A stretch of DNA of 19,098 nt from the NCBI GenBank assembly GCA_044236265.1, contig JBIIGV010000052.1:1-19098 (forward strand). The letters are read 5' to 3'. Of this stretch, positions 1-17,656 are shown piece after piece (the first letter of the stretch is position 1; every line of letters begins with the position of its first letter). Both the position numbers and the translations under genes were made by a program. The stretch comes from Oligoflexales bacterium. GTDB taxonomy: Bacteria; Bdellovibrionota_B; Oligoflexia; Oligoflexales; RGVZ01. The notes beneath the pieces are model-generated. The model searched no databases, was not told the DNA's origin, and saw nothing but the letters and a program-made list of their open reading frames with translations.

Positions 1-83
1 GTGGATTGAAATGGTCTATAATCGTGAGAGACTTCATTCAACGCTTGGATATTTGTCACCTGCATTGTATGAAGCAAAAACAA

Positions 84-132
84 GGGCGTCCTGAGTGTCT
101 ACTTTATCAGCGGAACTCCAGTGTCCCTAAAT
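84..132. repeat. Palindromic element family A, copy A1
   Basis: 91-120 CTGAGTGTCTACTTTATCAGCGGAACTCCA matches 2346-2375 at 28/30 nt. It is followed by the right end GTGTCCCTAAAT; the left end GGGCGTCCTGAG is degenerate. Confidence 0.85.
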
Positions 133-318
133 GCCCTAGGAAAAAACCCCCTGAACTTAGGCGTTTAGGCTGCCGTCGTACTTCTTTCGAGGGATATGTG
201 ACAGATTCGCTAAAAGCGATATCAAAGGTTTTTTTTATATAGTTTATTTACATCTAATATAATGTTACACGTCGCCGTGTAAATCGAGATGATAGGACCA
301 TAAAAGGAGATATCTCTT

Positions 319-786
319 ATGAAAACGCTGGCTTTCAGTTTTGCTTTGATGATTACGAGTTTTTTCTCCAATTTAGCGTTTGCCGCGATTCCCTGCGTGG
401 CTGATGACGTGGCTTCTCTACCGGCGAAGCTCGTTGGATTGACAAGTTTGAACGGCCAGAGCATTCGCCTTGAGGTTACAACACCTGGGTCGTCTAAAGT
501 GGCGCATTGCTCCGTGACCAGTACGGAGTGGGGTGATAAAATCCATTATACATTCGCAGAGCGTTTTGAGGCTGAAGTAAAAGTCAGTGTTGCCAATCCT
601 CTGAGTTCTCACCCAACTATTCATGTATTCAAGCTTAAAGACTTAGTCGTTGAGCCCATTTTAAGCGGTGATGAAAATGGTCGTTTCAACCGGACCGTGA
701 AGATTTATGACCCATCCCTTAAGATCTCATATTTGATGTTTTTAGATGCTAATGGTCGGGTTGGTCGCGTAAGGGCAAAGCTGTAA
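319..786 (+). CDS. Secreted hypothetical protein (155 aa)
   Basis: AAGGAG RBS at about 304-309, Sec-type signal peptide MKTLAFSFALMITSFFSNLAFA, no family recognised. Confidence 0.8.
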   Translation: MKTLAFSFALMITSFFSNLAFAAIPCVADDVASLPAKLVGLTSLNGQSIRLEVTTPGSSKVAHCSVTSTEWGDKIHYTFAERFEAEVKVSVANPLSSHPTIHVFKLKDLVVEPILSGDENGRFNRTVKIYDPSLKISYLMFLDANGRVGRVRAKL

Positions 787-801
787 AACGGCTTATATAC
801 T

Positions 802-899
802 GGAGACCCATAACTGATTGCCCATTGATGTTACAGATCAATCAATAGTCAATCAGTTATGTGTCCCTGAATTCTCTGAATTCCGTGTCCCTGAATTCC
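802..899. repeat. Palindromic element family B, copy B1, with duplicated right-end tail
   Basis: 802-873 matches B2 (2559-2630) at 66/72 nt and forms an imperfect long hairpin. CTGAATT occurs at 867, 876 and 891, with a second GTGTCCCTGAATTC at 885-898. Confidence 0.95.
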
Positions 900-1043
900 G
901 AGGACCGTGACGAATACTTCGAGGGCTACGATAAATCAGCTCGCCCGGCGTATGGATCCAGGCTCTCACACTTTGGTTGGTTGCTTTAAACTGAGCCTTG
1001 ACCAACAAGCAAATTTCGATCTTGAATCTCTAGTTGGGTGATC

Positions 1044-2168
1044 TTAGAACCCCATAACTCGTTTTGTCCAAGCTGCACCATAGATCTTTTTAAGGGTCTC
1101 TCGCATCGGGGCGTGGGCCGGATCCTGTCTCATTAATTCAAGGATCTTTTGAGCGCGCTGCTGAGCTATGCCATCGAAGAAATTTTTTTCGACGCCTCGT
1201 GCAATGCTCCATTCCTGGGCTACTTCCGCAAGCATGGCAAAAATGGCAATTCCATTCTTCTTAGTTAGAAACTCTGGTTCGCGTTCTGCCAGAACGCTAA
1301 TCATGGCTGCGTTGTAGTAGAGAAATTCGACGCCGCCGGCTCCCATGCCTCGAGAGTTCCCGACCTCGATCCCGTAAATTTCTTCCGTCAAATAGGCTCT
1401 CCACTCATCCACAATATTCTCACCGAGAACTTGGGTTGGGCGTGAACTGATGTAGGTATTATAGTACATGCCTTGTTTGAATATGATCTTATCAACAATA
1501 TCGCGTGTCAGCGTCTTCGGCTCGGGGAAATAAGCTCCTTTCCCATGCTGCCAGTAAATAAATTTACTGCCTGATCGAGCCTGCTCATGAAGCATGAAAT
1601 GCTGGGTCTCGTGAACATCTGTAGCTGGATCGCCGGATCCTAGATAGGGATTACGGGTATATCGCATAATCTCACAATAAAATCGCTTGAATCGACTCTC
1701 GTCACAAGTCCGACTAACAGATGGAATAGACACTAGCTCAATCTGCTTTTGCCACTCAAAGGACGAGGGGGTGGTGTCCCCTTGGATCGGTACAACTCTG
1801 ATCACTCTAACTTTCTGGATGTTGGAATCTTTGCTGGCTGCAACTAATGTTATTGTGGTAGCGCCATTGACCGTGATCACTTCGGGGAATTCGAAAAAGG
1901 CGCGTTCAGTCGAAACAAGACCTGCGCCTAGGATTTTCCCAGAATCTGGCGTACATTCAGCATCTCCAAGACAAAACCACATCGTCTCGTAACGTTTCGG
2001 AGCGGCTGCCATCAGGCGAACCTTGGAGCCCTCGGAACTCACAACCTGAGCAAATAAGTCCTCTGACGAATTGTTTTTCAGTCGCGAACTGACCTCAGGT
2101 GCTTGGCCACAAGCGCCGATCACGCTGAGACATGCGACAAATAGTAAACGTGAAGATTGTCGCAGCAT
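1044..2168 (-). CDS. Lipoprotein, putative HExxH zinc metallopeptidase
   Basis: The ORF track starts at 2261, but ATG 2168 gives a lipoprotein signal (MLRQSSRLLFVACLSVIGA-C). HETQH motif plus a downstream Glu in VDEWRAY as a possible third Zn ligand. Confidence 0.7.
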   Translation of the reverse strand: MLRQSSRLLFVACLSVIGACGQAPEVSSRLKNNSSEDLFAQVVSSEGSKVRLMAAAPKRYETMWFCLGDAECTPDSGKILGAGLVSTERAFFEFPEVITVNGATTITLVAASKDSNIQKVRVIRVVPIQGDTTPSSFEWQKQIELVSIPSVSRTCDESRFKRFYCEIMRYTRNPYLGSGDPATDVHETQHFMLHEQARSGSKFIYWQHGKGAYFPEPKTLTRDIVDKIIFKQGMYYNTYISSRPTQVLGENIVDEWRAYLTEEIYGIEVGNSRGMGAGGVEFLYYNAAMISVLAEREPEFLTKKNGIAIFAMLAEVAQEWSIARGVEKNFFDGIAQQRAQKILELMRQDPAHAPMRETLKKIYGAAWTKRVMGF

Positions 2169-2334
2169 TTTTTTGCCCGTCTGTGGGTTTGGGTTTAAAT
2201 TACAATCCATGTCGAGATGGATGCAAGAATTATCCCAAGCAGTAAATATTATTTTATTCAATAAGTACGGGCGGTTATATCGCGGATCTCGATTTGCTCT
2301 GTTGGTTTTTTTGACATTCCGTCAAAAGAAATAA

Positions 2335-2464
2335 ATTTGGGGACACTGAGAGTCTACTTTATCAGCTGAACTCCACACACGACGAAACCTAAATAGCCTA
2401 TGATCACTCTTGCTAGGGCTGAACGGCAGGATTCTATTTGGGTTTCGTCGTTGGTCCCCCAAAT
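2335..2464. repeat. Palindromic element family A, copy A2, with nested inner hairpin
   Basis: Left end ATTTGGGGACACTGAG, A core to 2375, inner 18-bp inverted repeat 2379-2396/2434-2451 (1 mismatch), right end GGTCCCCCAAAT. Confidence 0.85.
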
Positions 2465-2558
2465 GTCTAATCATTTAAGCTTTTGTTCGTTTTGTAGTGG
2501 GTCATGATAACTGCGCGGTACGAGGCCAGACCAACCATATGACCGCCAATATATAATC

Positions 2559-2662
2559 GGGGACACATAACTGGTTGACTATTGATGTTACAGATCAATC
2601 AATAGTCAACCAGTTATGTGTCCCTGAATTTCCTGAATTTCTGAATTGTCTGAATTAGAATT
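2559..2662. repeat. Palindromic element family B, copy B2 (perfect 27-bp stem) with CTGAATT stutter
   Basis: Arms 2560-2586 and 2598-2624 are exact reverse complements around an 11-nt loop. CTGAATT at 2624, 2633, 2641 and 2650, then GAATT at 2658. Confidence 0.97.
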
Positions 2663-2707
2663 ATCAGAATCATATTCTCATTCGATGATATTTCCGAATT
2701 AGGTGTT

Positions 2708-3868
2708 TCAACGACTAGGACATGTCACACGCCCTTCATTATAACGAATATCGCCATTGGAATACTTATAGCATAGGCCCGAGGAGCGATTTAAACAGAT
2801 ACCGCTATTCGTGGAATTAATAATCCGCAGATAGTCACGATTGCAATCTAGGATCTCTGAGGGTTGAGATGGCTGTTGCTGTGATGAGCCTCCGCTATTG
2901 CCTGGGCTTGAATTGTTAGGTGGGTTGCCTGAGCCACCTGGTGCTCCAGAGCACGCGACCCGTCCGAGATCATACAAAACATCGCCTGAATCAAATCGAT
3001 AACAGAATCCAGATGTTCGATTGATGCAGATACCAGTGCCGCCTGCGCGAATTAGCGAATAATCTCTTACACAATCGACTTCAGCCGAATTTGAGGGAGG
3101 GGTGTTCTGACTGCTGTCTGATGATTGGTTATCCGATGGGTTATCATTATTTTGATTGTCTCCACCCTGAGATGGCGAATCTGCCGTGGATAAGGTTTGA
3201 CTTATGAATCGTCTATTTTCTTCGCTAGTAAGGTCGGCCCAGAAACTATTTATATTTCCACTGCTCCAAGTTATACGGGAGGCAACGCCTACTAGCTCAC
3301 CTTGCTCGCTCAATAAAGGCCCGCCACTATCACCGGGACAAGTATCCACGTCACTATCTATAGCTGCTAAATATCCCGCCTGGATCAAATCAATTTTTAT
3401 ATTTCCGGCCCGTTTTGTACCAGCTCCTCTGGTAGCTTCCTCGTCGTCCGGATCAAATGCATTGCAGCCGAACCCAATGGCCCGCGCTGTATCCCCATGA
3501 GAAGGTGCAGTTGAGGAAATGTTGACATAGGTTTCCGACAGAGACTCGCCGAAAGTTAGAATTCTTAGATCGTAGCGAGCATCCCCGGTCGCGGAAGACC
3601 CTCCTTTAGGATAACGTGGGTGTGGGATGTCTCTAGCTGGAGTCTTACCTTTGTATTTCATGCCAAGGCAGTGGGCTGCTGTCAAAATTGCATTCTTTGC
3701 TACAAAAGTCCCTGTACAGCCTGAACGCTCGCTTCTAACAAAGACAACAGCCTTATTTTCATCCGTTTCAATACCTCCAAGGATCTTTAAGTGTGACCGT
3801 TCCTCGGGTGGAACACATCCCCACAGCGTCATTCCAGAAATAGCGATAGCACTAATCCAAGAATTCAT
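2708..3868 (-). CDS. Trypsin-like (S1) serine protease lipoprotein with two C-terminal Cys-rich repeats
   Basis: Lipobox LWG-C, ILGG mature N-terminus-like motif, LTAAHC, DLRIL and GDSGGPL catalytic motifs. Asp at the 189-equivalent position (DTCPGDS). GGAGG RBS. Confidence 0.93.
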   Translation of the reverse strand: MNSWISAIAISGMTLWGCVPPEERSHLKILGGIETDENKAVVFVRSERSGCTGTFVAKNAILTAAHCLGMKYKGKTPARDIPHPRYPKGGSSATGDARYDLRILTFGESLSETYVNISSTAPSHGDTARAIGFGCNAFDPDDEEATRGAGTKRAGNIKIDLIQAGYLAAIDSDVDTCPGDSGGPLLSEQGELVGVASRITWSSGNINSFWADLTSEENRRFISQTLSTADSPSQGGDNQNNDNPSDNQSSDSSQNTPPSNSAEVDCVRDYSLIRAGGTGICINRTSGFCYRFDSGDVLYDLGRVACSGAPGGSGNPPNNSSPGNSGGSSQQQPSQPSEILDCNRDYLRIINSTNSGICLNRSSGLCYKYSNGDIRYNEGRVTCPSR

Positions 3869-3901
3869 AGTTCCTCCAGTTTTTAAAAACGAGACCCGGT
3901 T

Positions 3902-3929
3902 TTATCGGTGGCGCTTGCAAAAAACTAAA
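3902..3929 (-). promoter_or_regulatory. Putative sigma28 (FliA) promoter of the protease gene
   Basis: Minus strand reads TTAG-N15-ACCGATAA versus consensus TAAA-N15-GCCGATAA, about 35 nt upstream of ATG 3868. Confidence 0.5.
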
Positions 3930-4080
3930 GAAAGTCTTCTTTTTGCTGTGATTTGTGCGACTTAATTTGGCGCATTAAGGAATAATTATTGCCGTGGTTT
4001 TCAAATTAATCAGCCATTTAGTTCCGCGCCCACGTTACTGTCCTAGCCCGAACAATTTGATTAATGCGGGCTAAATGCCA

Positions 4081-4110
4081 GTGAGAGCGACTTTTATCGC
4101 TAAGACTGAG
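4081..4110. repeat. Possible degenerate family A core (A3)
   Basis: GTGAGAGCGACTTTTATCGCTAAGACT resembles CTGAGAGTCTACTTTATCAGCTGAACT. It is preceded by CTAAATGCC (also found after A1) and lies just before B3. Confidence 0.35.
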
Positions 4111-4116
4111 GGAAAA

Positions 4117-4222
4117 ATATTTCGGGGATATTTGGGGAAAACCTAACTGATTGCTCATTGATGTAGCAGATCAATCAATAGTCAAGAAGGTATGTGGCCC
4201 TGAATAACAGGTCCTGAATAAC
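4117..4222. repeat. Palindromic element family B, copy B3 (degenerate), both ends duplicated
   Basis: 4135-4206 matches B1 at 59/72 nt, with the invariant CAGATCAATCAATAGTCAA. CCTGAATAAC occurs at 4199 and 4213; ATATTT(C)GGGGA occurs twice at 4117-4138. Confidence 0.92.
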
Positions 4223-4496
4223 CGTTCAAAATATTAATTGCGGCGAACGGGTCGTATTTGATCCGTTAAAAGATAAAATCCAACTTCAAAGTGGCATGTC
4301 GTGCGACATCAGCGTAGGCACCCTAAATGATGGCCTAGGTAAGAATTTTAATTTTGTCTACATTGTTGACGTTAAATAATTTATTCTGGGTGATGGTACG
4401 TGTAGCTCGATGGATTTGGTCGACGTAGAGTGCGTCTTCAAAGATCCTATCGGTTGCACGGATGTAAATCGGCGACAAATAACTGATAACGATTGA
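4218..4496 (+). pseudogene. Possible gene fragment between B3 and B4
   Basis: One frame stays open for about 93 codons apart from a single TAA at 4377-4379 (…NCGERVVFDPLKDKIQLQSGMSCDISVG…VK*FILGDGTCSSMDLVDVECVF…). No proper 5' start or RBS. Confidence 0.3.
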
Positions 4497-4541
4497 TTGA
4501 TCTTCGCCAGCAATAAATAATCAATTAAGTGTCTCTGAATT
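4471..4541. repeat. Palindromic element family B, copy B4 (degenerate, core inverted)
   Basis: GGCGACAAATAACTGAT…ATTGATTGATCT (reverse complement of AGATCAATCAAT)…AAGTGTCTCTGAATT. Confidence 0.75.
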
Positions 4542-4564
4542 TAACATTCTTTCGGCTTAAATGC

Positions 4565-5095
4565 TTAGTGACACGAGTCATAGTCAAGTATGCCGTCGCC
4601 CCTCGCCGGAATATTTGCCCAGCCCGTGGCACCTCTTTTTGATTTTATACGGAGCCAGCTTTCTGTTGATGCTTGTTTGAGGTTATCGTCGCAGACATCT
4701 TCTCCCAAATTGCATTCAGTAGCGCGGACGTTTTTACCATCCCAAATCGACACGTTGCCTTCAGCGACGTAAGTGAAAACCTTCAGTTTCTTTCCATTGA
4801 CCTTTGTCGAGCCAAACTTCAATATCTTAATGAAGAACTCAACGCTGTCTAACACTTCGCCTTTTTTTATAACGCCAACATTTTTAGACCCTCTACCTGG
4901 ACCTTCCGCAAGATTAATATCGGCAAGTGCCTTTTGTGATTTCAACAGCCCGCAGCATTCCCCTTCACAGCCCTCGGCAAGTATGGGGAGCCTAGGCAGT
5001 GACTTCAGGGTAAAAATATCAACCACAGGAATTTTTTCACCAGCTAAACATTTATATGAAACAACCATGAACAAAACCAAAAGGACATTTTTCAT
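4565..5095 (-). CDS. Secreted hypothetical protein, bacterial SH3-like motif
   Basis: ATG 5095 with GGAGG RBS and signal peptide MKNVLLVLFMVVSYKCLA. CEGECC motif and C-terminal WLRIKSKRGATGW, an SH3b-like pattern. Confidence 0.75.
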   Translation of the reverse strand: MKNVLLVLFMVVSYKCLAGEKIPVVDIFTLKSLPRLPILAEGCEGECCGLLKSQKALADINLAEGPGRGSKNVGVIKKGEVLDSVEFFIKILKFGSTKVNGKKLKVFTYVAEGNVSIWDGKNVRATECNLGEDVCDDNLKQASTESWLRIKSKRGATGWANIPARGDGILDYDSCH

Positions 5096-5597
5096 AAGGC
5101 CTCCGAGATCTCGCCTCAATAAAATTTTGATAATATATTTTCGAATATGTTAGTTGCGCTTGATTGCGAATCAGATGTCAGTTTAGGCGGCGATTACTCA
5201 AAATTCACCTTAAATTCGATTGAATGCCTCAACTTAGTCTGAGGTCGTTTGGAGCAGTGTCAGAAATTTTAAAAATTCGATAGACGTCCTGCTGGCGCAA
5301 AAAAACGTATCAGCTAGTAAATCGGCAGGTTATCTGTGTCAGCGGTTTCCCCCGGGGTAGCAGGCGAAACGCCGAACACTGCCGAACAGAATAATATTAC
5401 CAACGTCCGTATTTTCTTGTCTGAAGTTGGCGGGACAGGCATCCTCCGGCGTCGGCATACGGATATCTGACCGCCGCTCAACGGCGCGTATTTGAAACCT
5501 GGTTCAAGATTAAGGAGTGGTTTTAACCGAGATATCGTTTGAAGACGTTCAGGAGGATATGATGATGCAATTTTTCACTGGAAAAAAGTTGTCGGTA

Positions 5598-5611
5598 GGG
5601 TCTCTGAATTC
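5598..5611. repeat. Isolated right-end remnant of the repeat family
   Basis: GGGTCTCTGAATTC resembles the B4 end GTGTCTCTGAATT and lies immediately 5' of the RBS of the next gene. Confidence 0.4.
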
Positions 5612-5624
5612 TGTGGAGGCTCTT

Positions 5625-6263
5625 GTGAAGAATGTATTTGGAATATTTTTGATGTTTGTGATCTTTGCGTCATGCGACAATCCGAAGACGTCAAAAACTG
5701 AACCAGAGGCGGCACCTAAACAGTCAGAGAGCGGAGCTACGGACTCTGAAAATCCAGATTCTAGAGAACTCAAAATCTGCAGTTCACTTGATGACGTTCA
5801 AAATCACATAAATTCAAATGAGAATGAGCCAGAGGCCTTTTGCTTTCATAAGGTTGAGGACCCAACTCGCAATTTGGAGACTGGTCGCGCCATCAGGGCG
5901 GAAGAGCAACTTTCACCGGGTGTAGAACTAGCATTCCTCAATAAGCAGAGAGGCTTTGTTGACGCCAAAGACGCTTGTAAATCGATTGATGGTGATAAGT
6001 GGTCTCCGCCTGAGAGCGCAAGCGATATCGCGTCACCTAGAGCAGCGTCGGCCTCCCATTCATTTGAGGCGATGGTCAGTTATTTAGGCGGTCATTCATG
6101 GGAAATCAGAACTGACGGTCATCATCGCTGGTGGTTTTGGTCCGGATCATATGCTCTTCCATTGGAACGTTCCTGCGTGATGGCCGCTAATTTAATTTCT
6201 AAGGTCACGTTCAGCGAAGCATCCTATGGCCGCAGTAGCGTTGTTTGTTTGAAGCGCAAGTGA
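5625..6263 (+). CDS. Lipoprotein with DUF1566/Lcl- or C-type-lectin-like C-terminal domain
   Basis: GTG 5625 with GGAGG at 5615-5619 gives the lipoprotein signal MKNVFGIFLMFVIFAS-C (track start 5517; an alternative ATG lies near 5562). Motifs DAKDACKSI..KWSPP, WFWS and VVCLK follow the DUF1566-like pattern. Confidence 0.7.
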   Translation: MKNVFGIFLMFVIFASCDNPKTSKTEPEAAPKQSESGATDSENPDSRELKICSSLDDVQNHINSNENEPEAFCFHKVEDPTRNLETGRAIRAEEQLSPGVELAFLNKQRGFVDAKDACKSIDGDKWSPPESASDIASPRAASASHSFEAMVSYLGGHSWEIRTDGHHRWWFWSGSYALPLERSCVMAANLISKVTFSEASYGRSSVVCLKRK

Positions 6264-6358
6264 CCAAATTATTCAGATTTTAAAGTATTCGTAATATTTT
6301 TGGACTCCAGATTTTATTTAAAAATACGTCGATCAAAAGAGGTATTAATGGATTATAA

Positions 6359-6402
6359 AAAATGCTGCATGCGGACCTGAACCGGGCCACATGCAGCATT
6401 TT
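6359..6402. terminator. Bidirectional intrinsic terminator-like hairpin
   Basis: 13-bp inverted repeat AAAATGCTGCATG/CATGCAGCATTTT with A/T-rich flanks, between convergent genes. Confidence 0.75.
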
Positions 6403-6493
6403 ATTTAAGAACGCTCGTTCTAGTTATCCAAAATTCGCTTATTCTCAGCAAGATTTTCTGTAGTAGGGGAGCGAGTGGCCCCTAAATTTATTC

Positions 6494-7069
6494 TTAACCT
6501 ACTTTTTGTGTGCCAGGTGCCGAGCTATGGCTTTTGGCAGCTGAGATGATTTTTGAGACGCTTAAAATTCCGACTAAATGCTTGTCGCGTTTTGAGACGC
6601 CAGACATAAGATCTAGACCTGTTTCGGCAGCTGGTTGGGCTTGTTCATCAATATCTGCGGCCGTGACGGAGATAATTCCTGTTACGGCGTCAACGATAAT
6701 TGCAATTGGGCCAGCATTATCCCCAGAATCGCAAACAAGAACCCTGGTGCTGGCTGTCGCCTGCTCGCGCAGTCCACCTAGCATTTTCTTGAGGTTGATA
6801 ACTGGAATAATCTTCCCACGGAGGTTCATGACGCCCTCTGCGTAGGTTGGGCCGTTCGGAACAAATGTTAGCTTTGGCACCATGAGAATCTCAAGAATTT
6901 TTTCTGACTCCAGTAAATAGGCTAAAGCGCCAATTTTTAAATGCAGGAATCGAAGCTGATTCGGTTGACCAACGACCTGATTCTCATCCAACGAACGCGT
7001 GATGGCGAACAGACCTCGATATACATCGCCACCGTCTTCGTTTTCTTGGCCCCATACGTCTATTCCCAT
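6494..7069 (-). CDS. cheW: Chemotaxis coupling protein CheW
   Basis: LTFVPNGP..EGVMNLRGKIIPVINL and IIVDAV motifs; directly downstream of cheA. Confidence 0.93.
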   Translation of the reverse strand: MGIDVWGQENEDGGDVYRGLFAITRSLDENQVVGQPNQLRFLHLKIGALAYLLESEKILEILMVPKLTFVPNGPTYAEGVMNLRGKIIPVINLKKMLGGLREQATASTRVLVCDSGDNAGPIAIIVDAVTGIISVTAADIDEQAQPAAETGLDLMSGVSKRDKHLVGILSVSKIISAAKSHSSAPGTQKVG

Positions 7070-7096
7070 GTCCGTCCTCCGTGATCAGTTCAACAC

Positions 7097-9349
7097 TCAG
7101 GCAGCGCTGATCCTGGTTTTCTTGCTTTTATGAAAGTCTTCGAGTTCCGCGGTATCCATGACCAAAACAACCTCGCCGTCACCCAGAATGGCACCGCCTG
7201 CAATGCACGGGATGCCCTGCATAAGGTTACCTAAAGGTTTGATAACCATTTCTTGTTGGTTGATCAGAGAGTCGACGACCACGCCATATCTACGCTCTGC
7301 GTTGCCGATGATAACTGCATATTTTCGATCGTCACTGCGTGCTCGTTGTGATGTCGTAGGAGTTCCGTGAGAAGACTGCTTAGACGTTCCGTACCATGAA
7401 TCCGCATGTTTGCGGTCCAAACCAAGAATTGATTCCAGGTGGTAGATTGGAATGACCTTATCCCGTAGTTTCAGGACTGAGGATTCACCTACAGTCTGAA
7501 TATCAGTTGTTTTGATGCGAATGCTTTCAATCACCGAGTTTAGCGGTATAGCCACCGTTTCTTCGCCAACCTCAACCATCAGACTGTGGACAATTGCCAG
7601 GGTTAAGGGAAGGCGAATGGTTATAGTTGAGCCTTTTCCGACTGCAGAATCGATGTCAACTGTGCCCTTTAATTTAGAAATCTGCTTACGAACCACATCC
7701 ATTCCGACCCCTCGGCCGGAGACTGTTGTCACGGCTTCGGCTGTGGAGAACCCTGGTTCAAAGATCAAATTAAAAATTTCGTGGTCACTCAAGACCGCAT
7801 CACTCTTGATAAGGCCTTTTTCGACACCCTTGCTGCGAATCCTTTTTACATCCATGCCTTTGCCGTCATCGGCAATCTGTATAACGATTTGGTTGCCTTC
7901 TTGCTTGGCTGATAAAATAACGGTCCCCATCTCGTCTTTTCCCGCTGCTGCGCGTGAATCAGGAGACTCGATGCCGTGATCGCAGGCGTTGCGAATCAGA
8001 TGCACCAATGGATCGGCGATCTGTTCGACAAGTGTTTTATCGAACTCGGTTTCTTCACCTTGAATGACGAGGTTGATGTTTTTTCCCAGTTGCCGTGCGA
8101 GGTCGCGAACGATGCGGGGATATTTATTGAATATGGTTCCCACTGGTACCATTCGCACCTTCATGATGATTTCCTGGATCTCGTTCATGTGACGGCCAAA
8201 CTGCTGTAATGTCTCTGTCATGGAGCTCGTATACTTTCCATGAGAGTTCTGCAGTCTCATGGATTCGGCAATGTTTTGAAACTTGGTGCGATCAATCACA
8301 AGCTCCCCGACTAGGTTGACCAACGCGTCAAGCTTTTCAAGGTCGACTCGAATAGTTTCAGATGTCTCAGTTTTTTTCTTTGCTTGCACAGCCTTGTCGT
8401 CGTTGACGTGGCTATTGGATTTTTCGACTGTTTTTTCGGCATGGCTAATGTCACTGCCAGCATTCTTTTTTTTGTTCGGCCGCTCTTGGGTGGCTATGAT
8501 CTTGGCAGGTCTGCCTGCTGCTGCATCTTCCAAGTGTCTTATGATTGGTGCGGTCTTGATACCAGATGGTTCTTGATTGAAGACGGCCTCTATGAGTTTT
8601 TTTAAACAGTCGATCGCTGCCAATATGATATCGATGGTATCGGATGTGGGAGTTAGTTTGCCTTTGCGAACGTTATCAAACAGGTTTTCCAGTCTGTGGG
8701 TGAGTCGTTCTATGGCACGAAATCCAAACATCCCGGACGCGCCCTTAAGTGTGTGGGCGGCGCGGAATATCTCTTCGATCGTATCTTTGCTTTCAGGGTT
8801 TTGCTCCAAGCGCAAAATGCACTCGTCTAGAGTTTGCATGATTTCGGTGGAGTTAGACTGGAAATCTTTCATCATCTCAGGATCGGAGGCAAAGTCGTTG
8901 GACTCCCACTCCTCAATTTCGGGTATATCTCGCGTATCTGAGGGAGGTTCCCTTGCTGGCGGCTGTGTCGCAATTTTGGGTTCGCTGACAGGAGTCGGTG
9001 CGTCCATTTCGGCGAGTAGCCGCTGTGCTTCGTCGTCTGACATCGCAGATTCGCTGCTTTGTTGTGGGCTAGGGGCATCCATTTCCGCCATGAGACGTGC
9101 AGCTTCGTCATCCGACATGGGCTCATTTGCGATATTAGTATCGGTGGTCTCTAACTGAGGTTTGACGGTCCAATTGAGGACTAGATTCATCAGGTCGGAC
9201 GTTTCGATCAATGCCGCGCGCAGGCGTGAGCGAGTCTCGTCCTGTAGAGTTCCCGTTAACCGAATTTCATCCAGCGCAGCGATGACGATGGGTAGGCTCT
9301 CTCGGCGCAAATTGTCAAGTGCTGCGCTGGTCAGAGCATTGTTATCCAT
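7097..9349 (-). CDS. cheA: Chemotaxis histidine kinase CheA with N-terminal extension
   Basis: Hpt motif IFRAAHTLKG, dimerisation motif IRVDLEKLDALVNLVGELVI, HATPase motifs HLIRNACDHGIE/DDGKG/SGRGVGMDVV, and a C-terminal CheW-like domain. Confidence 0.97.
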   Translation of the reverse strand: MDNNALTSAALDNLRRESLPIVIAALDEIRLTGTLQDETRSRLRAALIETSDLMNLVLNWTVKPQLETTDTNIANEPMSDDEAARLMAEMDAPSPQQSSESAMSDDEAQRLLAEMDAPTPVSEPKIATQPPAREPPSDTRDIPEIEEWESNDFASDPEMMKDFQSNSTEIMQTLDECILRLEQNPESKDTIEEIFRAAHTLKGASGMFGFRAIERLTHRLENLFDNVRKGKLTPTSDTIDIILAAIDCLKKLIEAVFNQEPSGIKTAPIIRHLEDAAAGRPAKIIATQERPNKKKNAGSDISHAEKTVEKSNSHVNDDKAVQAKKKTETSETIRVDLEKLDALVNLVGELVIDRTKFQNIAESMRLQNSHGKYTSSMTETLQQFGRHMNEIQEIIMKVRMVPVGTIFNKYPRIVRDLARQLGKNINLVIQGEETEFDKTLVEQIADPLVHLIRNACDHGIESPDSRAAAGKDEMGTVILSAKQEGNQIVIQIADDGKGMDVKRIRSKGVEKGLIKSDAVLSDHEIFNLIFEPGFSTAEAVTTVSGRGVGMDVVRKQISKLKGTVDIDSAVGKGSTITIRLPLTLAIVHSLMVEVGEETVAIPLNSVIESIRIKTTDIQTVGESSVLKLRDKVIPIYHLESILGLDRKHADSWYGTSKQSSHGTPTTSQRARSDDRKYAVIIGNAERRYGVVVDSLINQQEMVIKPLGNLMQGIPCIAGGAILGDGEVVLVMDTAELEDFHKSKKTRISAA

Positions 9350-9375
9350 GCGCCGCCCCCTTACGAAAACGGTGA

Positions 9376-9897
9376 TTAAGAGGCTTTACTGACTTTTGAC
9401 TCAGTAGGACTCAGGAATAGGAAATAGCTGTCAGCCATGGCGTCAAATATCAAGCTTTGCTGGCATTTCTGACAAGCTTTTTCAGGGGCCGACTGTGCCG
9501 TGATAGATGCCTTGTCGCCTTTTACGTCGAGAAGTACTTCCATGTCTCCATGATCTTCGCAAACATAGGGTGCAAAAAATGACTCAACGGTTCCGTTACC
9601 TATGGATTCGGGGACCATGTTGAATTGGTCGACCATTGGAATCGAACATTTCCTGAACGTGAGTTGACCGAGTTTTTCCAGATCTTTAATCAGGAAAACC
9701 CATTCGCGAACGCCGCAGGAGTTGAAGTTTGTAATGCCTTCAAGATCCATGGTAATTGAATTGGCTTGAATGCGAGGAACATCCTGTTGTCTGAAGGTGT
9801 CGTCAACATCACCTTTGAAGGTATAGAGAACGCCGTTTCCGGACTGTTCGATTTCAATCGTCAGACTGCCAAATGTGATTTTGTTGGACATGGTCAT
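9376..9897 (-). CDS. STAS/anti-anti-sigma-like protein with C-terminal Zn-ribbon-like motifs
   Basis: FKGDVD and MDLEGITNFNSCGVREW (STAS-like Ser motif); CEDH and CQKC pairs. Confidence 0.7.
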   Translation of the reverse strand: MTMSNKITFGSLTIEIEQSGNGVLYTFKGDVDDTFRQQDVPRIQANSITMDLEGITNFNSCGVREWVFLIKDLEKLGQLTFRKCSIPMVDQFNMVPESIGNGTVESFFAPYVCEDHGDMEVLLDVKGDKASITAQSAPEKACQKCQQSLIFDAMADSYFLFLSPTESKVSKAS

Positions 9898-9953
9898 TCT
9901 CCGAGTAAGCCGTAGCTATTTCCTGGCAAACAAAACAATGTTTACCAGGAGAG

Positions 9954-9981
9954 GTTTCGGAGATTGGGTGCAAAAGCTTAA
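9954..9981 (-). promoter_or_regulatory. Putative sigma28 (FliA) promoter of the STAS-cheA-cheW operon
   Basis: Minus strand reads TAAG-N15-TCCGAAAC, the same spacing as the site at 3902-3929; the context is a chemotaxis operon. Confidence 0.45.
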
Positions 9982-10045
9982 ACGCACTTATTTGGCAAAA
10001 ACCAAAAAAACACGAGAAATCTCGACAAATCCAAAAGTTGCCTGG

Positions 10046-11434
<1,389 letters not shown>

Positions 11435-14129: not shown

Positions 14130-14373
14130 TTTTAAGGTCCTGAATTCATTGATGCCTTACCAGTCCAGATGTCAAAGGCATTGACGCCTTGGATCGGCGG
14201 TCTGAGTTCGTTGCTTGTTCTAAAGGGTTAAAGTGCGCACCGTTTCGACGTGATTTCGAATTCTGCGCATTCACCGCAGATAAGCATCTGAAAATACAAG
14301 AATAAGTTGCCTTAAACCTCCCTGATCTCATCTAATCTTAGTAAGTTACCGAAGAGTGGCCTGGGAGTCGGCG

Positions 14374-16080
14374 ATGAGGGTCAGGCGAAAAGATTATAAA
14401 TTTCAGAAGACTGCGGGTGAAGAGGGTAGCCTGAGTATTATCTTCGTGGTGCTGCTTTCAGCGGCGTCCCTTGTAGGTGTTTCCGCATTAGTGAAGAAGT
14501 ATGCTGATGAGGGCAAGGTTGCCAAGCTAAATGAGCGTAGGGCCGACGCCGCGTTAAATCCGATCAATGCGGCGATCGTGGCGAAGTCCCTTTTCTCTCC
14601 GCCGGGTCTGTGGACAACGCCTAACTTGGTTGGTCAACCCGCGAGGATGCCGAGTCTATATGTAGATCCATATATCCCCTCGGCAGCTGTATTCGCGGGT
14701 ACCCCTCCTGCAGGATTGACGCTGGTAAATCCAAGTCCTGCCGGTAGCGCTATATGGAGTAGCGCTGCCTATGCTAGTTCCCGCAGTATTGATGTCTTTG
14801 CGGTTGATAGAAATCGATTAAATCCAGCTGGTCTCAACAGTTTATTGACCGATGCGGCTGATGGCGGTTCCTTCGACGCTAGTTTGCTGTCACGAATGCC
14901 AACAACAAAGTCTACGATCAAGAACTTCGTTCTGTCCCATTGTACGCCCACCGGTGCGCCATCTGCTAGCTATACTGGCGTATATTGTGTTCAGGCTGAT
15001 TTCATCACAGCAAACTATAGCGTCAACAGTAATGCTGCATCGGGAAGTAACTCATCAACGGTATTTTTAGGGACACTTCCAGTTCCACCCCCACCTGTGT
15101 GCAATAGTGTCGTCGTTCCGCCAAACATCCAGCCCGGTGATACCAGAACCGTGACGGTTTCAGCATCGGGAGTTGTAACAGGCTACACGTTCTCCGTTAG
15201 AGCGATGGTTGGTGGAGTGATGCGAACGTACGTCAATCAGGATGTGAGTAGGGTTTTGACGGCAGCCAACAGCGTTCGGGGAACGGCTAATCTCGCGCCC
15301 TTGACCATCAACTTGTCAGATCTTAACTCGTTCAACTATACGACGATGCCGAGTGGAACCAGGCTTAGCGTTAATGTTTCCTTGAAAGGTGTTACCGGTG
15401 CGGCAGTCGCTTGTCCTGCGCCCAACATCGTCGTCACAAGGCCTAGTTGCTCGTTGGCTTTCAATAAGACGACGCCCTATATGGCCGGAGAACTTGTGAC
15501 TATGAATTACGGCCTTGCAAATTCGCGAACGGGCGATGTTTCGGACTATCAACAACAAAATATTGCCATGAGCGGACGACCTCCAGCGTCACCCGATGGG
15601 AATCGGCAATATTCAGGCACAGCGCCCGGAGGCAACAACGTGCCTATATCTGCCTCAGTGACGCTGCGGCGCGGGCCTTTGGTGGTGGCGCAGTGTAGCA
15701 CCTCGGGAGTTAGCACCATTCCTTGTCGACCAAATCCAAACTTTGCAAGAGGTACACATTATGGAAATCAAGCGAACTGGGATCCGAGTCGGTTTTTAAG
15801 TATTCCGGGACGTTTGCCGTTTGAACTTTACAATCAAATTGCCGGAAATCCCGGGAACTCATCTCTTGTCGATTCAGCAGGCAACCGTACAGAGTTGTGT
15901 CAGCGAGTTTTTGGGCCTTATGCAGCGCCTTGGGGCGGGGGAGCATTGCGATACAGTAGTCCTGGTAACAACACGGTTTGTTTTGGTGTCAATGGGCGAG
16001 ACTGTCGAAATGCAAAAGCCGCTGGTAATCCGCCTCACATCACCTGGACACTATGTCGCTGTGACATTAGATTTCCGTAG
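14374..16080 (+). CDS. Large pilin-like (PilX/GspK-type N-terminus) protein with Cys/Pro/Asn-rich extracellular region
   Basis: Basic leader then EEG|SLSIIFVVLL hydrophobic helix lacking Glu+5. Start is ATG 14374 or GTG 14356. Confidence 0.7.
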   Translation: MRVRRKDYKFQKTAGEEGSLSIIFVVLLSAASLVGVSALVKKYADEGKVAKLNERRADAALNPINAAIVAKSLFSPPGLWTTPNLVGQPARMPSLYVDPYIPSAAVFAGTPPAGLTLVNPSPAGSAIWSSAAYASSRSIDVFAVDRNRLNPAGLNSLLTDAADGGSFDASLLSRMPTTKSTIKNFVLSHCTPTGAPSASYTGVYCVQADFITANYSVNSNAASGSNSSTVFLGTLPVPPPPVCNSVVVPPNIQPGDTRTVTVSASGVVTGYTFSVRAMVGGVMRTYVNQDVSRVLTAANSVRGTANLAPLTINLSDLNSFNYTTMPSGTRLSVNVSLKGVTGAAVACPAPNIVVTRPSCSLAFNKTTPYMAGELVTMNYGLANSRTGDVSDYQQQNIAMSGRPPASPDGNRQYSGTAPGGNNVPISASVTLRRGPLVVAQCSTSGVSTIPCRPNPNFARGTHYGNQANWDPSRFLSIPGRLPFELYNQIAGNPGNSSLVDSAGNRTELCQRVFGPYAAPWGGGALRYSSPGNNTVCFGVNGRDCRNAKAAGNPPHITWTLCRCDIRFP

Positions 16081-16110
16081 ATTAATTTAAGCGATGGAGT
16101 TTGTTCAGGC

Positions 16111-16857
16111 GTGAAACTAGGAGCAAAAAATATTTTCGATTTGATTGTAAGGCCTCTGCTGTGGGGTGAGGTTGGAGCCTCTATGCCTGCAATTTTAGTG
16201 TCATCAGGAATTCTCGGTATTTTGGGCTTTGGTGTCATAAAGTCACTGGGTGAAGCTGGAAAATTTCAAAATGAAAATGCTGTGCGTGCCTCTGCGACAA
16301 AATTTCAAGATGTGATGCGAGCAGAGCTCGCCAAAACTGCCAGAAAATTCATTGCCGATGATTGTACTGGTAGTCGTTTTGGTGGGGTGTCTAATCCGCT
16401 AAAGTTTGCGTTTGACAAGCTTGATATAAACTCTTTGGATAGCGGTGACAGCGTTTCCATGCGCTACACGACGACGCCAGTTGCACGCGCGTCTGAGCAT
16501 AAAGATGCTGCCAAGCGCTGTACACAGCCTAGAAATGGAATTGCCAATGGGGCGAGGATCGGGGCTGGAGAGTACGCGTATTTCTGTTTAAAGTTTGAGG
16601 CATCACAGAATTATGTTCAAAAAGGCAATCTCAGTGCCCAGTCTTTTTGGCGTGTCCCAGATGCGTTCATGGAAGTTATGATAGTACCTGTTCAGCTACA
16701 GACAGATACACCCATTTTGTGCCGCGACGTCAATGGTGGTGCTCAAGGTGCTAAGATCCTGTACTCAGTTTACTACTCTAGTCAATTTGGTGCGTCGTCT
16801 GGAGGGTCTCTTGGAAAGCGCCTTTACGGGGTATTTTACGTGAGTGGTGATCAATGA
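16111..16857 (+). CDS. Pilin-like protein (class III signal-like N-terminus)
   Basis: EVG|ASMPAILVSSGILGILGFGV followed by an amphipathic helix; four Cys; co-oriented with its neighbours. Confidence 0.65.
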   Translation: MKLGAKNIFDLIVRPLLWGEVGASMPAILVSSGILGILGFGVIKSLGEAGKFQNENAVRASATKFQDVMRAELAKTARKFIADDCTGSRFGGVSNPLKFAFDKLDINSLDSGDSVSMRYTTTPVARASEHKDAAKRCTQPRNGIANGARIGAGEYAYFCLKFEASQNYVQKGNLSAQSFWRVPDAFMEVMIVPVQLQTDTPILCRDVNGGAQGAKILYSVYYSSQFGASSGGSLGKRLYGVFYVSGDQ

Positions 16858-16870
16858 TGAGCAGGCTGAC

Positions 16871-17656
16871 ATGAAGAAATTTTTGAATTATTTTGATACC
16901 AAAAGATCTTGGAGAGGTTGGGATCGTCGAGCTGGAATGAGCCTGGTTGAACTTTTGGTCTCCATAGGTATTGCTGGAATCGTCATGACTTTTGCGGTTC
17001 GCTATTATCGCACATATCTAGAGCAGAAATGGGTGCAGGAGACCAAGTCAAATATGCAGGCGACCAAAGAGCATGTGGCGGCTGTCTTGCGCAAAAAGAT
17101 TCCTCGCTCCATCGCTGCACTTAGTGTTTCGCCGCCAACTACGAATGCGGCAGTCTGGACTTGCCCTTCCGGGGGGCCGTGTCGACTTTCCACAGATGCT
17201 GTCAATGGCATCCGAATTGAAGTGACTTGTACATCGACAAGTGGAATTTCGATTCTCGATAAAACCCCTTTTGATCAAGTTTCTGCGAATTTGACTGGCC
17301 AATGTATCAAATGTGGAAAAGGAACCAGGCCGGTGATGACCATCCAGTTATACACTGGAGGCGTTTTGACGAGTAGTAAGCAGTTTCCGCAGACTAATGC
17401 CTATAATAATTTAGTGGCGATGGGTATGTGCTTTGATGCTCCGTTGTACCAAGAAAACACTGGTACCGCGGCAGTCCCAAATATGGTCAATCGATGGGAT
17501 CGATGGAAGATCACACTTCTGCCGTACTATTTTACGCAGATGCCGACAGTAAGCCACTCTGCTGCTGAACTGGTGTCGCGAATCAAATTCGTACCTGAAC
17601 AGATCATGCTAGCGCCAGATGCCCAGCTTGGGCCCAACATGCGGATTATCAGATGA
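16871..17656 (+). CDS. Prepilin-type N-terminal cleavage/methylation domain protein
   Basis: RAG|MSLVELLVSIGIAGIV, a canonical type IV prepilin motif with Glu+5. Start is ATG 16871 (track gives GTG 16844). Confidence 0.85.
   Translation: MKKFLNYFDTKRSWRGWDRRAGMSLVELLVSIGIAGIVMTFAVRYYRTYLEQKWVQETKSNMQATKEHVAAVLRKKIPRSIAALSVSPPTTNAAVWTCPSGGPCRLSTDAVNGIRIEVTCTSTSGISILDKTPFDQVSANLTGQCIKCGKGTRPVMTIQLYTGGVLTSSKQFPQTNAYNNLVAMGMCFDAPLYQENTGTAAVPNMVNRWDRWKITLLPYYFTQMPTVSHSAAELVSRIKFVPEQIMLAPDAQLGPNMRIIR

What the first reader, a model, noticed from the sequence alone, without database searches (positions are those of the whole stretch)
84..6263. Array of single exported-protein genes delimited by GGGACAC...GTGTCCC palindromes: candidate non-integron gene-cassette system
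Seen in sequence: the order is A1 | secreted ORF(+) | B1 | metallopeptidase-like(-) | A2, B2 | trypsin(-) | A3?, B3 | gene fragment | B4 | SH3-like(-) | end remnant | lectin-like lipoprotein(+). The genes are unrelated, all carry export signals, and are in mixed orientation. The repeats are confined to this block, and no full copy was seen in the 12.6 kb core region. Established: HUH Y1 RAYT/IS200-like enzymes and integron integrases both act on folded ssDNA hairpins. Inference: the hairpins are recombination or insertion sites through which secreted effector genes are captured or shuffled by an enzyme encoded outside the window. The weaker alternative is that they are REPIN/MITE-like elements accumulating in a variable region.
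Basis: partly seen in the sequence, partly recalled or inferred. Interest (0 to 1): 0.85.

Follow-up and report, generated by a model that had tools for sequence, protein, structure and literature searches.

The report
Transposase-end hairpins bordering swapped genes
The palindromes are real, but they belong to a genome-wide family of short inverted repeats of the kind that flanks a single-strand DNA transposase gene elsewhere in this genome, and they likely act as cut-and-join points where extra genes are gained and lost rather than as a dedicated gene-cassette system.

Summary
The 'B' hairpins are real, but they are not confined to this block. About 52 loci in three subfamilies share the AATTGG(G/T)G(A/C)CAC end, and 11 of 15 B loci lie on other contigs. 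They match the GGGGWSAS terminal inverted repeats (TIRs) of TIRYT, the subclass-2.1 TnpA-REP Y1 transposases. One such gene, flanked by these TIRs, lies on contig C88. 'A1' and the core of 'A2' are ends of an IS3 element inserted into TIRs. The block is an accessory island between flgE and cheW, empty in 5 of 7 relatives. No attC cores, no IntI, and no excision joints in 8 metagenomes were found. Still, TIR outer ends sit on gene gain and loss breakpoints: two strain alleles diverge exactly at the B1 and B4 ends, and in relatives an 89-bp dimer replaces a 1.56-kb gene region and a 2-kb arm-gene-arm unit fills an empty site. Best reading: miniature TIRtron derivatives whose transposase probably drives one-ended joins and adjacent deletions that build and trim such islands. 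The repeat class is known, this role is little described, and catalysis is untested. The scan reached a similar repeat identity in two other genomes.

The parts
1..120 (+).
   Evidence: 99-100% identical at the ends of C2, C108, C168, C169; 80% aa identity to the C-terminus of a full IS3 OrfB of G001 (NF033516 E 6e-103)
121..132 (+). Right half of a C-type TIR dimer split by the IS (GTG target duplication); the left half is at the start of contig C9, just after the flgE terminator
   Evidence: a contig in run X5 joins the C9 arm directly to position 121, i.e. an IS-free allele (table 7)
319..786 (+). 155-aa secreted protein, no family; stop codon 11 bp before B1
   Evidence: found in 0 of 20 relatives, with one 40% paralogue in the own genome
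798..872 (+). B1: TIR dimer (hairpin), followed by duplicated end pieces to about 901
   Evidence: loose end of a strain contig exactly at 798 (X2); 9-bp tail indel in X11
1044..2168 (-). 374-aa lipoprotein with HETQH (HExxH-type) motif, no family
   Evidence: full-length orthologues in 2 of 20 relatives (71% and 59%), at other sites and without TIRs
2334..2463 (+). A2: C-type TIR dimer; 2347-2375 is a 29-bp IS3-end scar between CAC duplications (2344-2346 and 2376-2378)
2555..2629 (+). B2: near-perfect TIR dimer (27-bp perfect stem, 11-nt loop), with TGAATT tail repeats to about 2660
2708..3868 (-). Trypsin-family serine protease with a lipoprotein-type N-terminus
   Evidence: PF00089 E 2.4e-15
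4082..4109 (+). 'A3': decayed IS3-end-like stretch
   Evidence: alignment to the A2 scar beats 99.9% of 1949 random windows
4131..4205 (+). B3: decayed TIR dimer
4218..4466 (+). Gene fragment with one in-frame stop, cut at both ends by B3 and B4
   Evidence: no homologue found for its first 53 aa; a strain contig runs on past 4468 without B4 (X5)
4467..4540 (+). B4: decayed TIR dimer with its loop flipped relative to B1-B3
4565..5095 (-). 176-aa secreted SH3-like protein; stop codon about 25 bp from B4
   Evidence: found in 0 of 20 relatives
5596..5612 (-). Possible decayed TIR arm upstream of the last gene (weak; below the PWM threshold)
   Evidence: (family D4)
5625..6263 (+). 212-aa lipoprotein, Lcl_C-like; likely start is GTG 5625, after GGAGG
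   Evidence: partial homologues in 2 of 20 relatives, with no TIR seen beside those checked
6494..7069 (-). cheW-like gene, right border of the island (hairpin at 6353-6408); flgE on C9 is the left border
   Evidence: gene names are recalled from the sequences, not from a family scan

Best explanation
The hairpins are paired terminal inverted repeats of the kind that flanks a TIRYT (subclass-2.1 TnpA-REP) Y1 transposase gene on another contig, and that enzyme likely nicks single-stranded DNA just outside the repeats' AATT ends and joins it to new DNA, which would insert repeats at gene 3' ends, delete or replace neighbouring DNA, and so help build and trim accessory islands like this one. Shown: repeat identity, genome-wide spread, the TIR-flanked transposase, IS3 insertions into the repeats, the island's position between flgE and cheW, and breakpoints at repeat outer ends. 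Inferred: that the transposase, not host recombination, makes those breakpoints; a cut site 0-5 nt outside AATT, read from the duplicated tails; and that B and E copies are relics of related TIRtrons lost or unassembled here. The incoming genes are probably ordinary accessory genes from relatives or from elsewhere in the chromosome, not preformed cassettes.
For: Identity: the single Y1_Tnp of the genome (C88, 232 aa; NHVH, WQ, YIELNP, SS) matches the subclass-2.1 motifs in PMC6006769 Table 1. It has a GGGGACAC arm at its 3' end and an IS-split arm upstream, and GGGGACAC fits the GGGGWSAS consensus of PMC3733652. Of 12 related transposase loci, 6 have such arms on both sides, 4 on one side and 2 on none. 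B arms align over about 35 bp with the TIRs of the G001/G006 TIRtron. Targeting: 25 of 76 strong arms have their outer end within 15 bp of a same-strand stop, against about 3% for random intergenic positions. Clustering: 21 of 52 loci have a neighbour within 2.5 kb, against a mean of 3.1 and a maximum of 14 in 2000 permutations. Breakpoints: strain contigs leave the window at 798 (B1 end) and 4468 (B4 end), and neither continuation is in the own genome. In the G001/G004/G005/G006 clade, 0 of 19 comparison rows (about 12 sites, chosen from TIR clusters) was a clean insertion; an 89-bp dimer stands for 1561 bp, and a 2011-bp arm-gene-arm unit stands for 32 bp. TIRs clip the last codons of flanking genes. 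A 2.9-kb block 90% identical between G000 and G004 ends 47 bp from an E arm's outer end. E. coli TnpA-REP cleaves and strand-transfers in vitro and was proposed to sequester flanking genes (PMC3333891).
Against: No skip or circle joints in 8 runs, and near-identical pieces bridge B1, A2/B2, B3 and B4 in the window's order (contigs only, low depth). The two breakpoint alleles rest on one contig each, and 5 and 9 loose-end rows were not shown. The C88 transposase is flanked by C-type, not B-type, TIRs, and no B-flanked transposase was found (genome 88.7% complete). Secreted-gene clusters without TIRs occur in relatives, including at this site in G008. A block 91% identical to G004 inside the C123 cluster ends at gene ends, not at TIRs. 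A glutaredoxin gene flanked by arms is syntenic in arm-free relatives. The island's cheW-side border has no clear TIR. The passages read report no assay of a subclass-2.1 enzyme, and Quentin et al. found no REP-like sequences near subclass 2.1.
Confidence: 0.58

Rival explanations
1. Passive accumulation: the island was built by ordinary horizontal transfer and illegitimate recombination, and TIR dimers later hopped locally into it because insertions there cost little; they move only themselves.
For: B copies inside the window are no more alike (52-59 of 65) than B1/B2 are to copies elsewhere (55-58 of 65). Many C and E copies lie between core genes, and their neighbours show no excess of signal peptides (11/33 and 11/31 against 32%). 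A B dimer is conserved between a methyltransferase and ligA in G008. G008 has an accessory gene at flgE-cheW with no TIR. No joints in 8 runs.
Against: It does not explain strain alleles breaking at B1 and B4 outer ends, clipped stop codons, or 0 of 19 clean insertions in the clade comparison. B neighbours are enriched for crude signal peptides (15/23, p=0.001 before correction).
Confidence: 0.22
2. True integron-like cassette system: units of promoter-gene-stop plus one TIR arm excise as circles and reinsert at resident arms through TIRYT, giving arrays.
For: G001:C44 holds three AAA_14/DUF4143 genes and an HTH gene pair, each followed by an arm on the same strand, and G005 lacks one unit. 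The same smpB-side arm is preceded by different genes in G001 and G005, and the site is empty in G004 and G006. C123 has three same-orientation E dimers with a shared spacer between M23, YdeI, cupin and SnoaL genes. In the window, three minus-strand genes each end next to a B right end.
Against: No circles or precise empty sites were seen. Junctions are imprecise and clip or truncate genes. Genes keep their own upstream regions and lie in both orientations. Orthologues of the window genes found elsewhere carry no TIR. No gene-plus-arm unit was found at two unrelated sites with arms at both.
Confidence: 0.13
3. Host recombination: RecA-dependent or microhomology events between short repeats and between IS3 copies sitting in them cause the rearrangements, with TIRYT only seeding the repeats.
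For: All 12 IS3 ends lie in or inside TIRs or TIR-like motifs. The A2 scar looks like a deletion between TGAG microhomologies. Arms are 35-75 bp repeats present at dozens of loci.
Against: Homologous exchange would join arm to arm. Several junctions join an arm's outer end to non-repeat sequence inside gene ends (B4).
Confidence: 0.07

Closest known systems
TIRtron / TIRYT (Di Nocera et al. 2013, PMC3733652) = TnpA-Y1 subclass 2.1 (Quentin et al. 2018, PMC6006769) = RAYT group 1 (Bertels et al. 2017, PMC5581495)
   Same: Single-copy ~230-aa HUH-Y1 transposase with NHVH/WQ/YIELNP/SS, flanked by inverted repeats bearing GGGGWSAS; moderately abundant TIR family occurring as singles, dimers and clusters.
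   Different: Three TIR subfamilies with only one cognate gene found; strong placement at stop codons; comparative evidence that TIR outer ends mark gene gain and loss, which the passages read do not report.
REPIN/BIME-RAYT (groups 2/3; E. coli TnpA-REP, PMC3333891)
   Same: Paired arms with a variable spacer, intergenic and 3'-biased, clustered, with local end duplications, and targets for IS elements; capture of flanking genes was proposed.
   Different: No GTAG tag; the arm itself is mostly not a hairpin (the two arms pair with each other); tens rather than hundreds of copies; different enzyme subclass.
REP-targeting IS3 elements (IS1397, ISKpn1, ISPsy8; PMC1525189)
   Same: OrfA HTH_Tnp_1 plus OrfB rve; inserts at a fixed point of a palindromic repeat with a 3-bp duplication.
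   Different: The target is a TIRYT TIR (CAC/GTG of GGGGACAC), used in two species here.
Integron cassette arrays (IntI/attC)
   Same: Accessory genes interspersed with folded repeats in one orientation, often just after stop codons.
   Different: No complementary RYYYAAC/GTTRRRY cores, no IntI, mixed gene orientation, imprecise junctions, and repeats also between core genes.
Subclass-2.1 TnpA-REP next to procA genes in picocyanobacteria (bioRxiv 2020.03.09.984088)
   Same: Same enzyme subclass, linked by genomics to variable clusters of exported-product genes.
   Different: There the transposase genes themselves sit in the clusters, and the authors later found no strong evidence for or against causality; here the gene-less TIRs do.

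Membership tests
TIRtron/TIRYT (subclass 2.1) | HUH-Y1 transposase with NHVH or NH[YF]H, W[EQ], YIELNP, SS, about 238 aa | tested here: met
   C88 protein of 232 aa; motifs from PMC6006769 Table 1; NF047646 E 1e-19, under its cut-off
TIRtron/TIRYT (subclass 2.1) | Gene flanked by terminal inverted repeats with GGGGWSAS | tested here: met
   the upstream arm is split by IS3
TIRtron/TIRYT (subclass 2.1) | Dispersed TIR family in singles, dimers and clusters | tested here: met
TIRtron/TIRYT (subclass 2.1) | B-type repeats have a cognate TIRYT in this genome | tested here: inconclusive
   none found; B matches the TIRs of the G001/G006 TIRtron; genome 88.7% complete
TIRtron/TIRYT (subclass 2.1) | C-terminal HTH-like extension | tested here: inconclusive
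   a C-terminal extension of about 110 aa is present but has no HTH Pfam hit
TIRtron/TIRYT (subclass 2.1) | Enzyme binds and cleaves the TIRs | not testable with these tools
   needs biochemistry
REPIN/BIME (RAYT groups 2/3) | GTAG-tagged short REP hairpins | tested here: not met
   arm ends are AATTGG[GT]G[AC]CAC (column counts)
Integron | attC with complementary RYYYAAC/GTTRRRY cores | tested here: not met
   4 chance core pairs in 1-6400, none complementary or matching a repeat; no covariance-model attC test was run
Integron | IntI integrase in the genome | tested here: not met
   one PF00589 match, XerD-like, with no IntI model among its NCBIfam hits; genome 88.7% complete
Integron-like cassette system (any recombinase) | Precise excision: circles or clean empty sites | tested here: inconclusive
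   no joints in 8 runs of contigs; junctions in relatives are imprecise
IS3 family | OrfA HTH_Tnp_1, OrfB DDE integrase, TG...CA ends, 3-4 bp duplication | tested here: met
   (full copy seen in G001; only ends assembled in G000)
Rfam RNA families | Match at gathering score | tested here: not met
   only two sub-threshold miRNA hits on B2

The most novel reading that the evidence does not exclude
TIRYT and its TIRs form an integron-like gene-capture system without a tyrosine recombinase. Because arms land at stop codons, any promoter-gene unit between two arms becomes a mobile cassette, and the enzyme stacks such units into arrays (this island, C123, the AAA-ATPase array of G001) that swap secreted effectors among related bacteria. 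This would give a function to the largest and least studied RAYT group.
Probability: 0.2. Interest if true: 0.82.

Novelty: new variant of a known kind. Interest (0 to 1): 0.5.

Why it matters
Subclass 2.1 / group 1 is the largest RAYT group (about 15% of sampled strains in PMC6006769), and the passages read give it no tested substrate or function. This genus supplies cognate enzyme-TIR pairs, a predicted cut position just outside AATT, and filled and empty sites in close relatives. That makes the question of what domesticated Y1 transposases do for the host directly testable. If TIR ends drive gene gain and loss, they are an unrecognised route for pangenome turnover of secreted proteins. If they are passive, the finding is an ordinary TIR repeat family plus a new repeat-targeting IS3.

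Tried and rejected
- A-type palindrome family: rejected; these are IS3 ends.
- Integron: rejected.
- Structured RNA family: nothing at gathering score.
- Idea that the 374-aa gene was moved from the ABC-permease site by exchange at C-type TIRs. In G002 it follows that permease, and in G000 the TIRtron does. Kept only as a lead, because the permease has a different downstream neighbour in nearly every relative checked.
- Exact-pattern scans for B arms found 0 in genome contigs and 0 in metagenome contigs. Both scans may omit near-identical records.
- Viral scans gave 1 and 3 hits, none a TIR dimer in the 180 bp viewed.
- No related locus for the 155-aa gene in metagenome contigs.
- The 278-kb contig carrying a 91%-identical SH3 protein (P0001) could not be reached; the genome scan gave one weak unrelated hit.
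- No homologue for the B3-B4 fragment, and no usable Atlas hit for the 374-aa protein.
- Codon and GC tests showed no clear foreign signature for TIR neighbours (only B codon p=0.02).
- No RNA holder listed.
- The trypsin gene was not searched in relatives.
- Promoter and terminator counts were no higher than in shuffles.


Full report
**Setting.** The window is the whole of contig C67 of a 3.25-Mb, 234-contig assembly, 88.7% complete. The runs holding it are mostly lake or freshwater metagenomes. The label Oligoflexales comes from earlier scan notes and was not tested here. Gene names such as flgE, cheW, smpB, pntA and ggt are recalled from the translations unless a family scan is cited.

**The observation.** Five exported-protein genes, one fragment and four B repeats are present as described. 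B1 and B2 are strong hairpins; B3 and B4 are decayed. The A repeats are something else. Bases 1-120 recur at the ends of C2, C108, C168 and C169 and encode the last 30 residues of an IS3 OrfB, followed by the right inverted repeat. A full copy in relative G001 scores as IS3. A2 is a separate palindrome (type C, GGGGACACACGAC) with a 29-bp IS-end scar between two CAC triplets.

**The repeats are genome-wide.** A profile scan gave 109 arm hits against 8 in the reversed genome. Keeping arms with score 19 or more outside ORFs longer than 150 aa, and merging within 200 bp (which merges A2's right arm with B2), leaves 52 loci: 19 C, 18 E (GGTGCCACCCGAC) and 15 B. Eleven of the 15 B loci lie on other contigs. 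Many C copies lie between core genes. A B dimer sits between the same methyltransferase and ligA genes in G000 and G008. Loci favour convergent gene pairs (21 of 46, against 152 of 1160 intergenic regions) and cluster strongly (21 of 52 within 2.5 kb of another; mean 3.1, maximum 14 in 2000 permutations). Of 76 strong arms, 25 have their outer end within 15 bp of a same-strand stop, against about 3% under a rough null built on my own ORF calls.

**The enzyme.** The genome has one Y1_Tnp match, on C88. It is a 232-aa protein with NHVH, WQ, YIELNP and SS, whose 3' end runs through a C-type arm and whose upstream arm is split by the IS3. These are the subclass-2.1 motifs of Quentin et al. (PMC6006769; passages and part 1 of 2 of section 15 read), who equate the subclass with the TIRYT of Di Nocera et al. 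(PMC3733652; passages read). TIRYT genes are flanked by TIRs bearing GGGGWSAS, and TIR families occur as singles, dimers and clusters. I did not see that paper's Figure 9 or supplements, which list the TIRs and might include this lineage. Of 12 related transposase loci, 6 have such arms on both sides, 4 on one side and 2 on none. B arms align with the TIRs of the G001 and G006 TIRtrons. Arm counts in relatives vary: 32, 13, 8, 1 and 0 pattern hits in G001, G004, G008, G012 and G011; of these five only G001 has a Y1_Tnp match. The only tyrosine recombinase found is XerD-like, and no complementary attC cores occur in the block.

**The IS3 element targets the repeats.** Of 12 IS ends in G000, 8 abut CAC or GTG in an arm, 2 lie in dimer spacers and 2 in degenerate TIR-like motifs. 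The G001 copy also sits between CAC duplications in a TIR. REP-targeting IS3 elements with 3-bp duplications are known (PMC1525189, passages).

**The block is an island.** A contig in run X5 joins the C9 arm directly to window position 121, so C9, which ends in flgE, is the left neighbour and the IS insertion is polymorphic. Among 7 relatives with the cheW orthologue, 5 have flgE and cheW directly adjacent, one has a ParA-like gene between them, and one (G008) has an unrelated 563-aa gene with no TIR. The window genes are patchy among 20 relatives: 374-aa protein full length in 2, SH3 in 0, 155-aa protein in 0, last lipoprotein partial in 2. None of the homologues checked had a TIR beside it. 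Two other B-marked sites, on C143 and C107, are shorter or empty in relatives.

**Do the repeats move genes? Evidence for.** Two strain contigs leave the window exactly at outer ends: 798 (B1; 64 nt onward, run X2) and 4468 (B4; 156 nt onward, run X5). Neither continuation is in the own genome. Two other long loose ends (4613 and 5762) are not at repeats. In the G001/G004/G005/G006 clade, none of 19 comparison rows in which homology broke at or shortly before an arm was a clean insertion. These rows cover about 12 sites, are not independent and were picked from TIR clusters; four rows resumed only on another TIR. One 89-bp dimer stands in place of 1561 bp holding a lipoprotein gene. A 2011-bp arm-gene-arm unit stands in place of 32 bp before smpB, and the arms clip the last codons of both flanking genes. 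G001 has three AAA_14 genes and an HTH gene pair, each followed by an arm, and G005 lacks one unit. C123 has three E dimers sharing a spacer between small accessory genes. A 2.9-kb block 90% identical to G004 ends 47 bp from an E arm's outer end. B neighbours are enriched for crude signal peptides (15 of 23 against 32%), while C and E neighbours are not.

**Evidence against.** Eight runs showed no skip or circle joints, and pieces bridge the repeats in the window's order. These are contigs at low depth, and X1 may be the source sample. B copies in the window are no closer to each other than to copies elsewhere. A block 91% identical to G004 ends at gene ends rather than at arms. An arm-flanked glutaredoxin gene is syntenic in arm-free relatives. 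Accessory clusters without TIRs are common in the genus. The junctions seen are imprecise, unlike integron cassettes.

**Mechanism.** By analogy with E. coli TnpA-REP, which cleaves and strand-transfers single-stranded repeats and was proposed to sequester flanking genes (PMC3333891, passages), TIRYT probably binds the paired arms, nicks just outside AATT and joins that end to other DNA. The short tail duplications after B1, B2 and B3 suggest the cut lies a few bases beyond AATT. Complete reactions would move a dimer; one-ended reactions would delete or replace adjacent DNA and join in gene-sized pieces. Selection against loss of useful genes would leave arms pressed against stop codons. All of this is inference.

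**Literature and novelty.** The repeat class and enzyme are known. A genomic link between subclass 2.1 and variable gene clusters was proposed for procA genes and then qualified by its authors (bioRxiv 2020.03.09.984088, part 1 of 2 read). Group 1 RAYTs are described as having few flanking repeats (PMC5581495 and bioRxiv 2021.07.10.451892, passages). Seven searches listed no paper on TIRYT TIRs as breakpoints of gene gain and loss, or on these repeats in Oligoflexales; the library lacks most subscription journals. Two earlier scan reports on other genomes reached the TIRtron identity and rejected cassettes. My reading before that call was already TIRYT.

**Verdict.** A new variant of a known kind, interest 0.5. 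The dedicated cassette system is not shown, but the repeats look more active than passive, and the system is directly testable.

Noticed in passing
G000 IS ends on C2, C9, C16, C51, C67, C88, C108, C168, C169, C186, C207; L202:10570-11860: An IS3-family element inserts almost only into TIRYT TIRs, mostly with a CAC/GTG duplication, in two species; runs show further insertion sites absent from the assembly (loose ends at 120-132).
   Followed up: partly
L201 (G001:C44) 1-5400: Tandem array of three divergent AAA_14/DUF4143 ATPase genes plus an HTH gene pair, each ending at a TIR arm; unit content differs in G005. Possible defence-type island.
   Followed up: partly
L113 (G000:C123) 5650-10400: Cluster downstream of a likely tmRNA gene with E-type TIRs between LysR, M23, YdeI, cupin, DUF2237, DUF2805 and SnoaL genes. 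The SnoaL start codon region is itself a TIR arm, and its 5' part is duplicated about 1.5 kb upstream.
   Followed up: partly
L001:1165-1200 and L250:2515-2540: TIR arms supply the last codons of neighbouring genes (the transposase itself ends QFGFGRVSPN; the gene upstream of the smpB island gains NWGHPTD).
   Followed up: no
G000:C216 near 19166 and C206 near 30355: A short fourth palindrome type (GGGGAC...GTCCCC with a core of about 9 bp); in run X11 the C216 right flank follows a B-type arm, suggesting exchange of TIR interiors at one site.
   Followed up: partly
G000:C88 3966 versus L079:6744-9522: The orthologue of the window's 374-aa gene lies in G002 directly after the ABC permease that in G000 is followed by the TIRtron.
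   Followed up: partly
L117:4177-6303 (G000:C199): 708-aa lipoprotein ending at a B dimer has a weak, sub-threshold Pfam TNT-domain hit (E 8e-4).
   Followed up: no
L212:7570-8050: A stretch of about 470 bp with many copies at 71-85% identity in G002, G004, G005, G006 and G012; probably another mobile element.
   Followed up: no
L030, L036, L044, L045, L046, L049, L050: A second clade of long Y1 transposases (FRCHN...NHAH...RYKSP) in related families, several with short tandem repeats upstream rather than GGGGACAC TIRs.
   Followed up: no
window 14356-17656: Three genes with pilin-like N-termini (one PF07963 hit), probably a type IV pilin or pseudopilin cluster.
   Followed up: no
window 4625-4808 and 1506-1824: Strain alleles with dense substitutions inside the SH3 and 374-aa genes, so the island genes have diverged within the population.
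   Followed up: no
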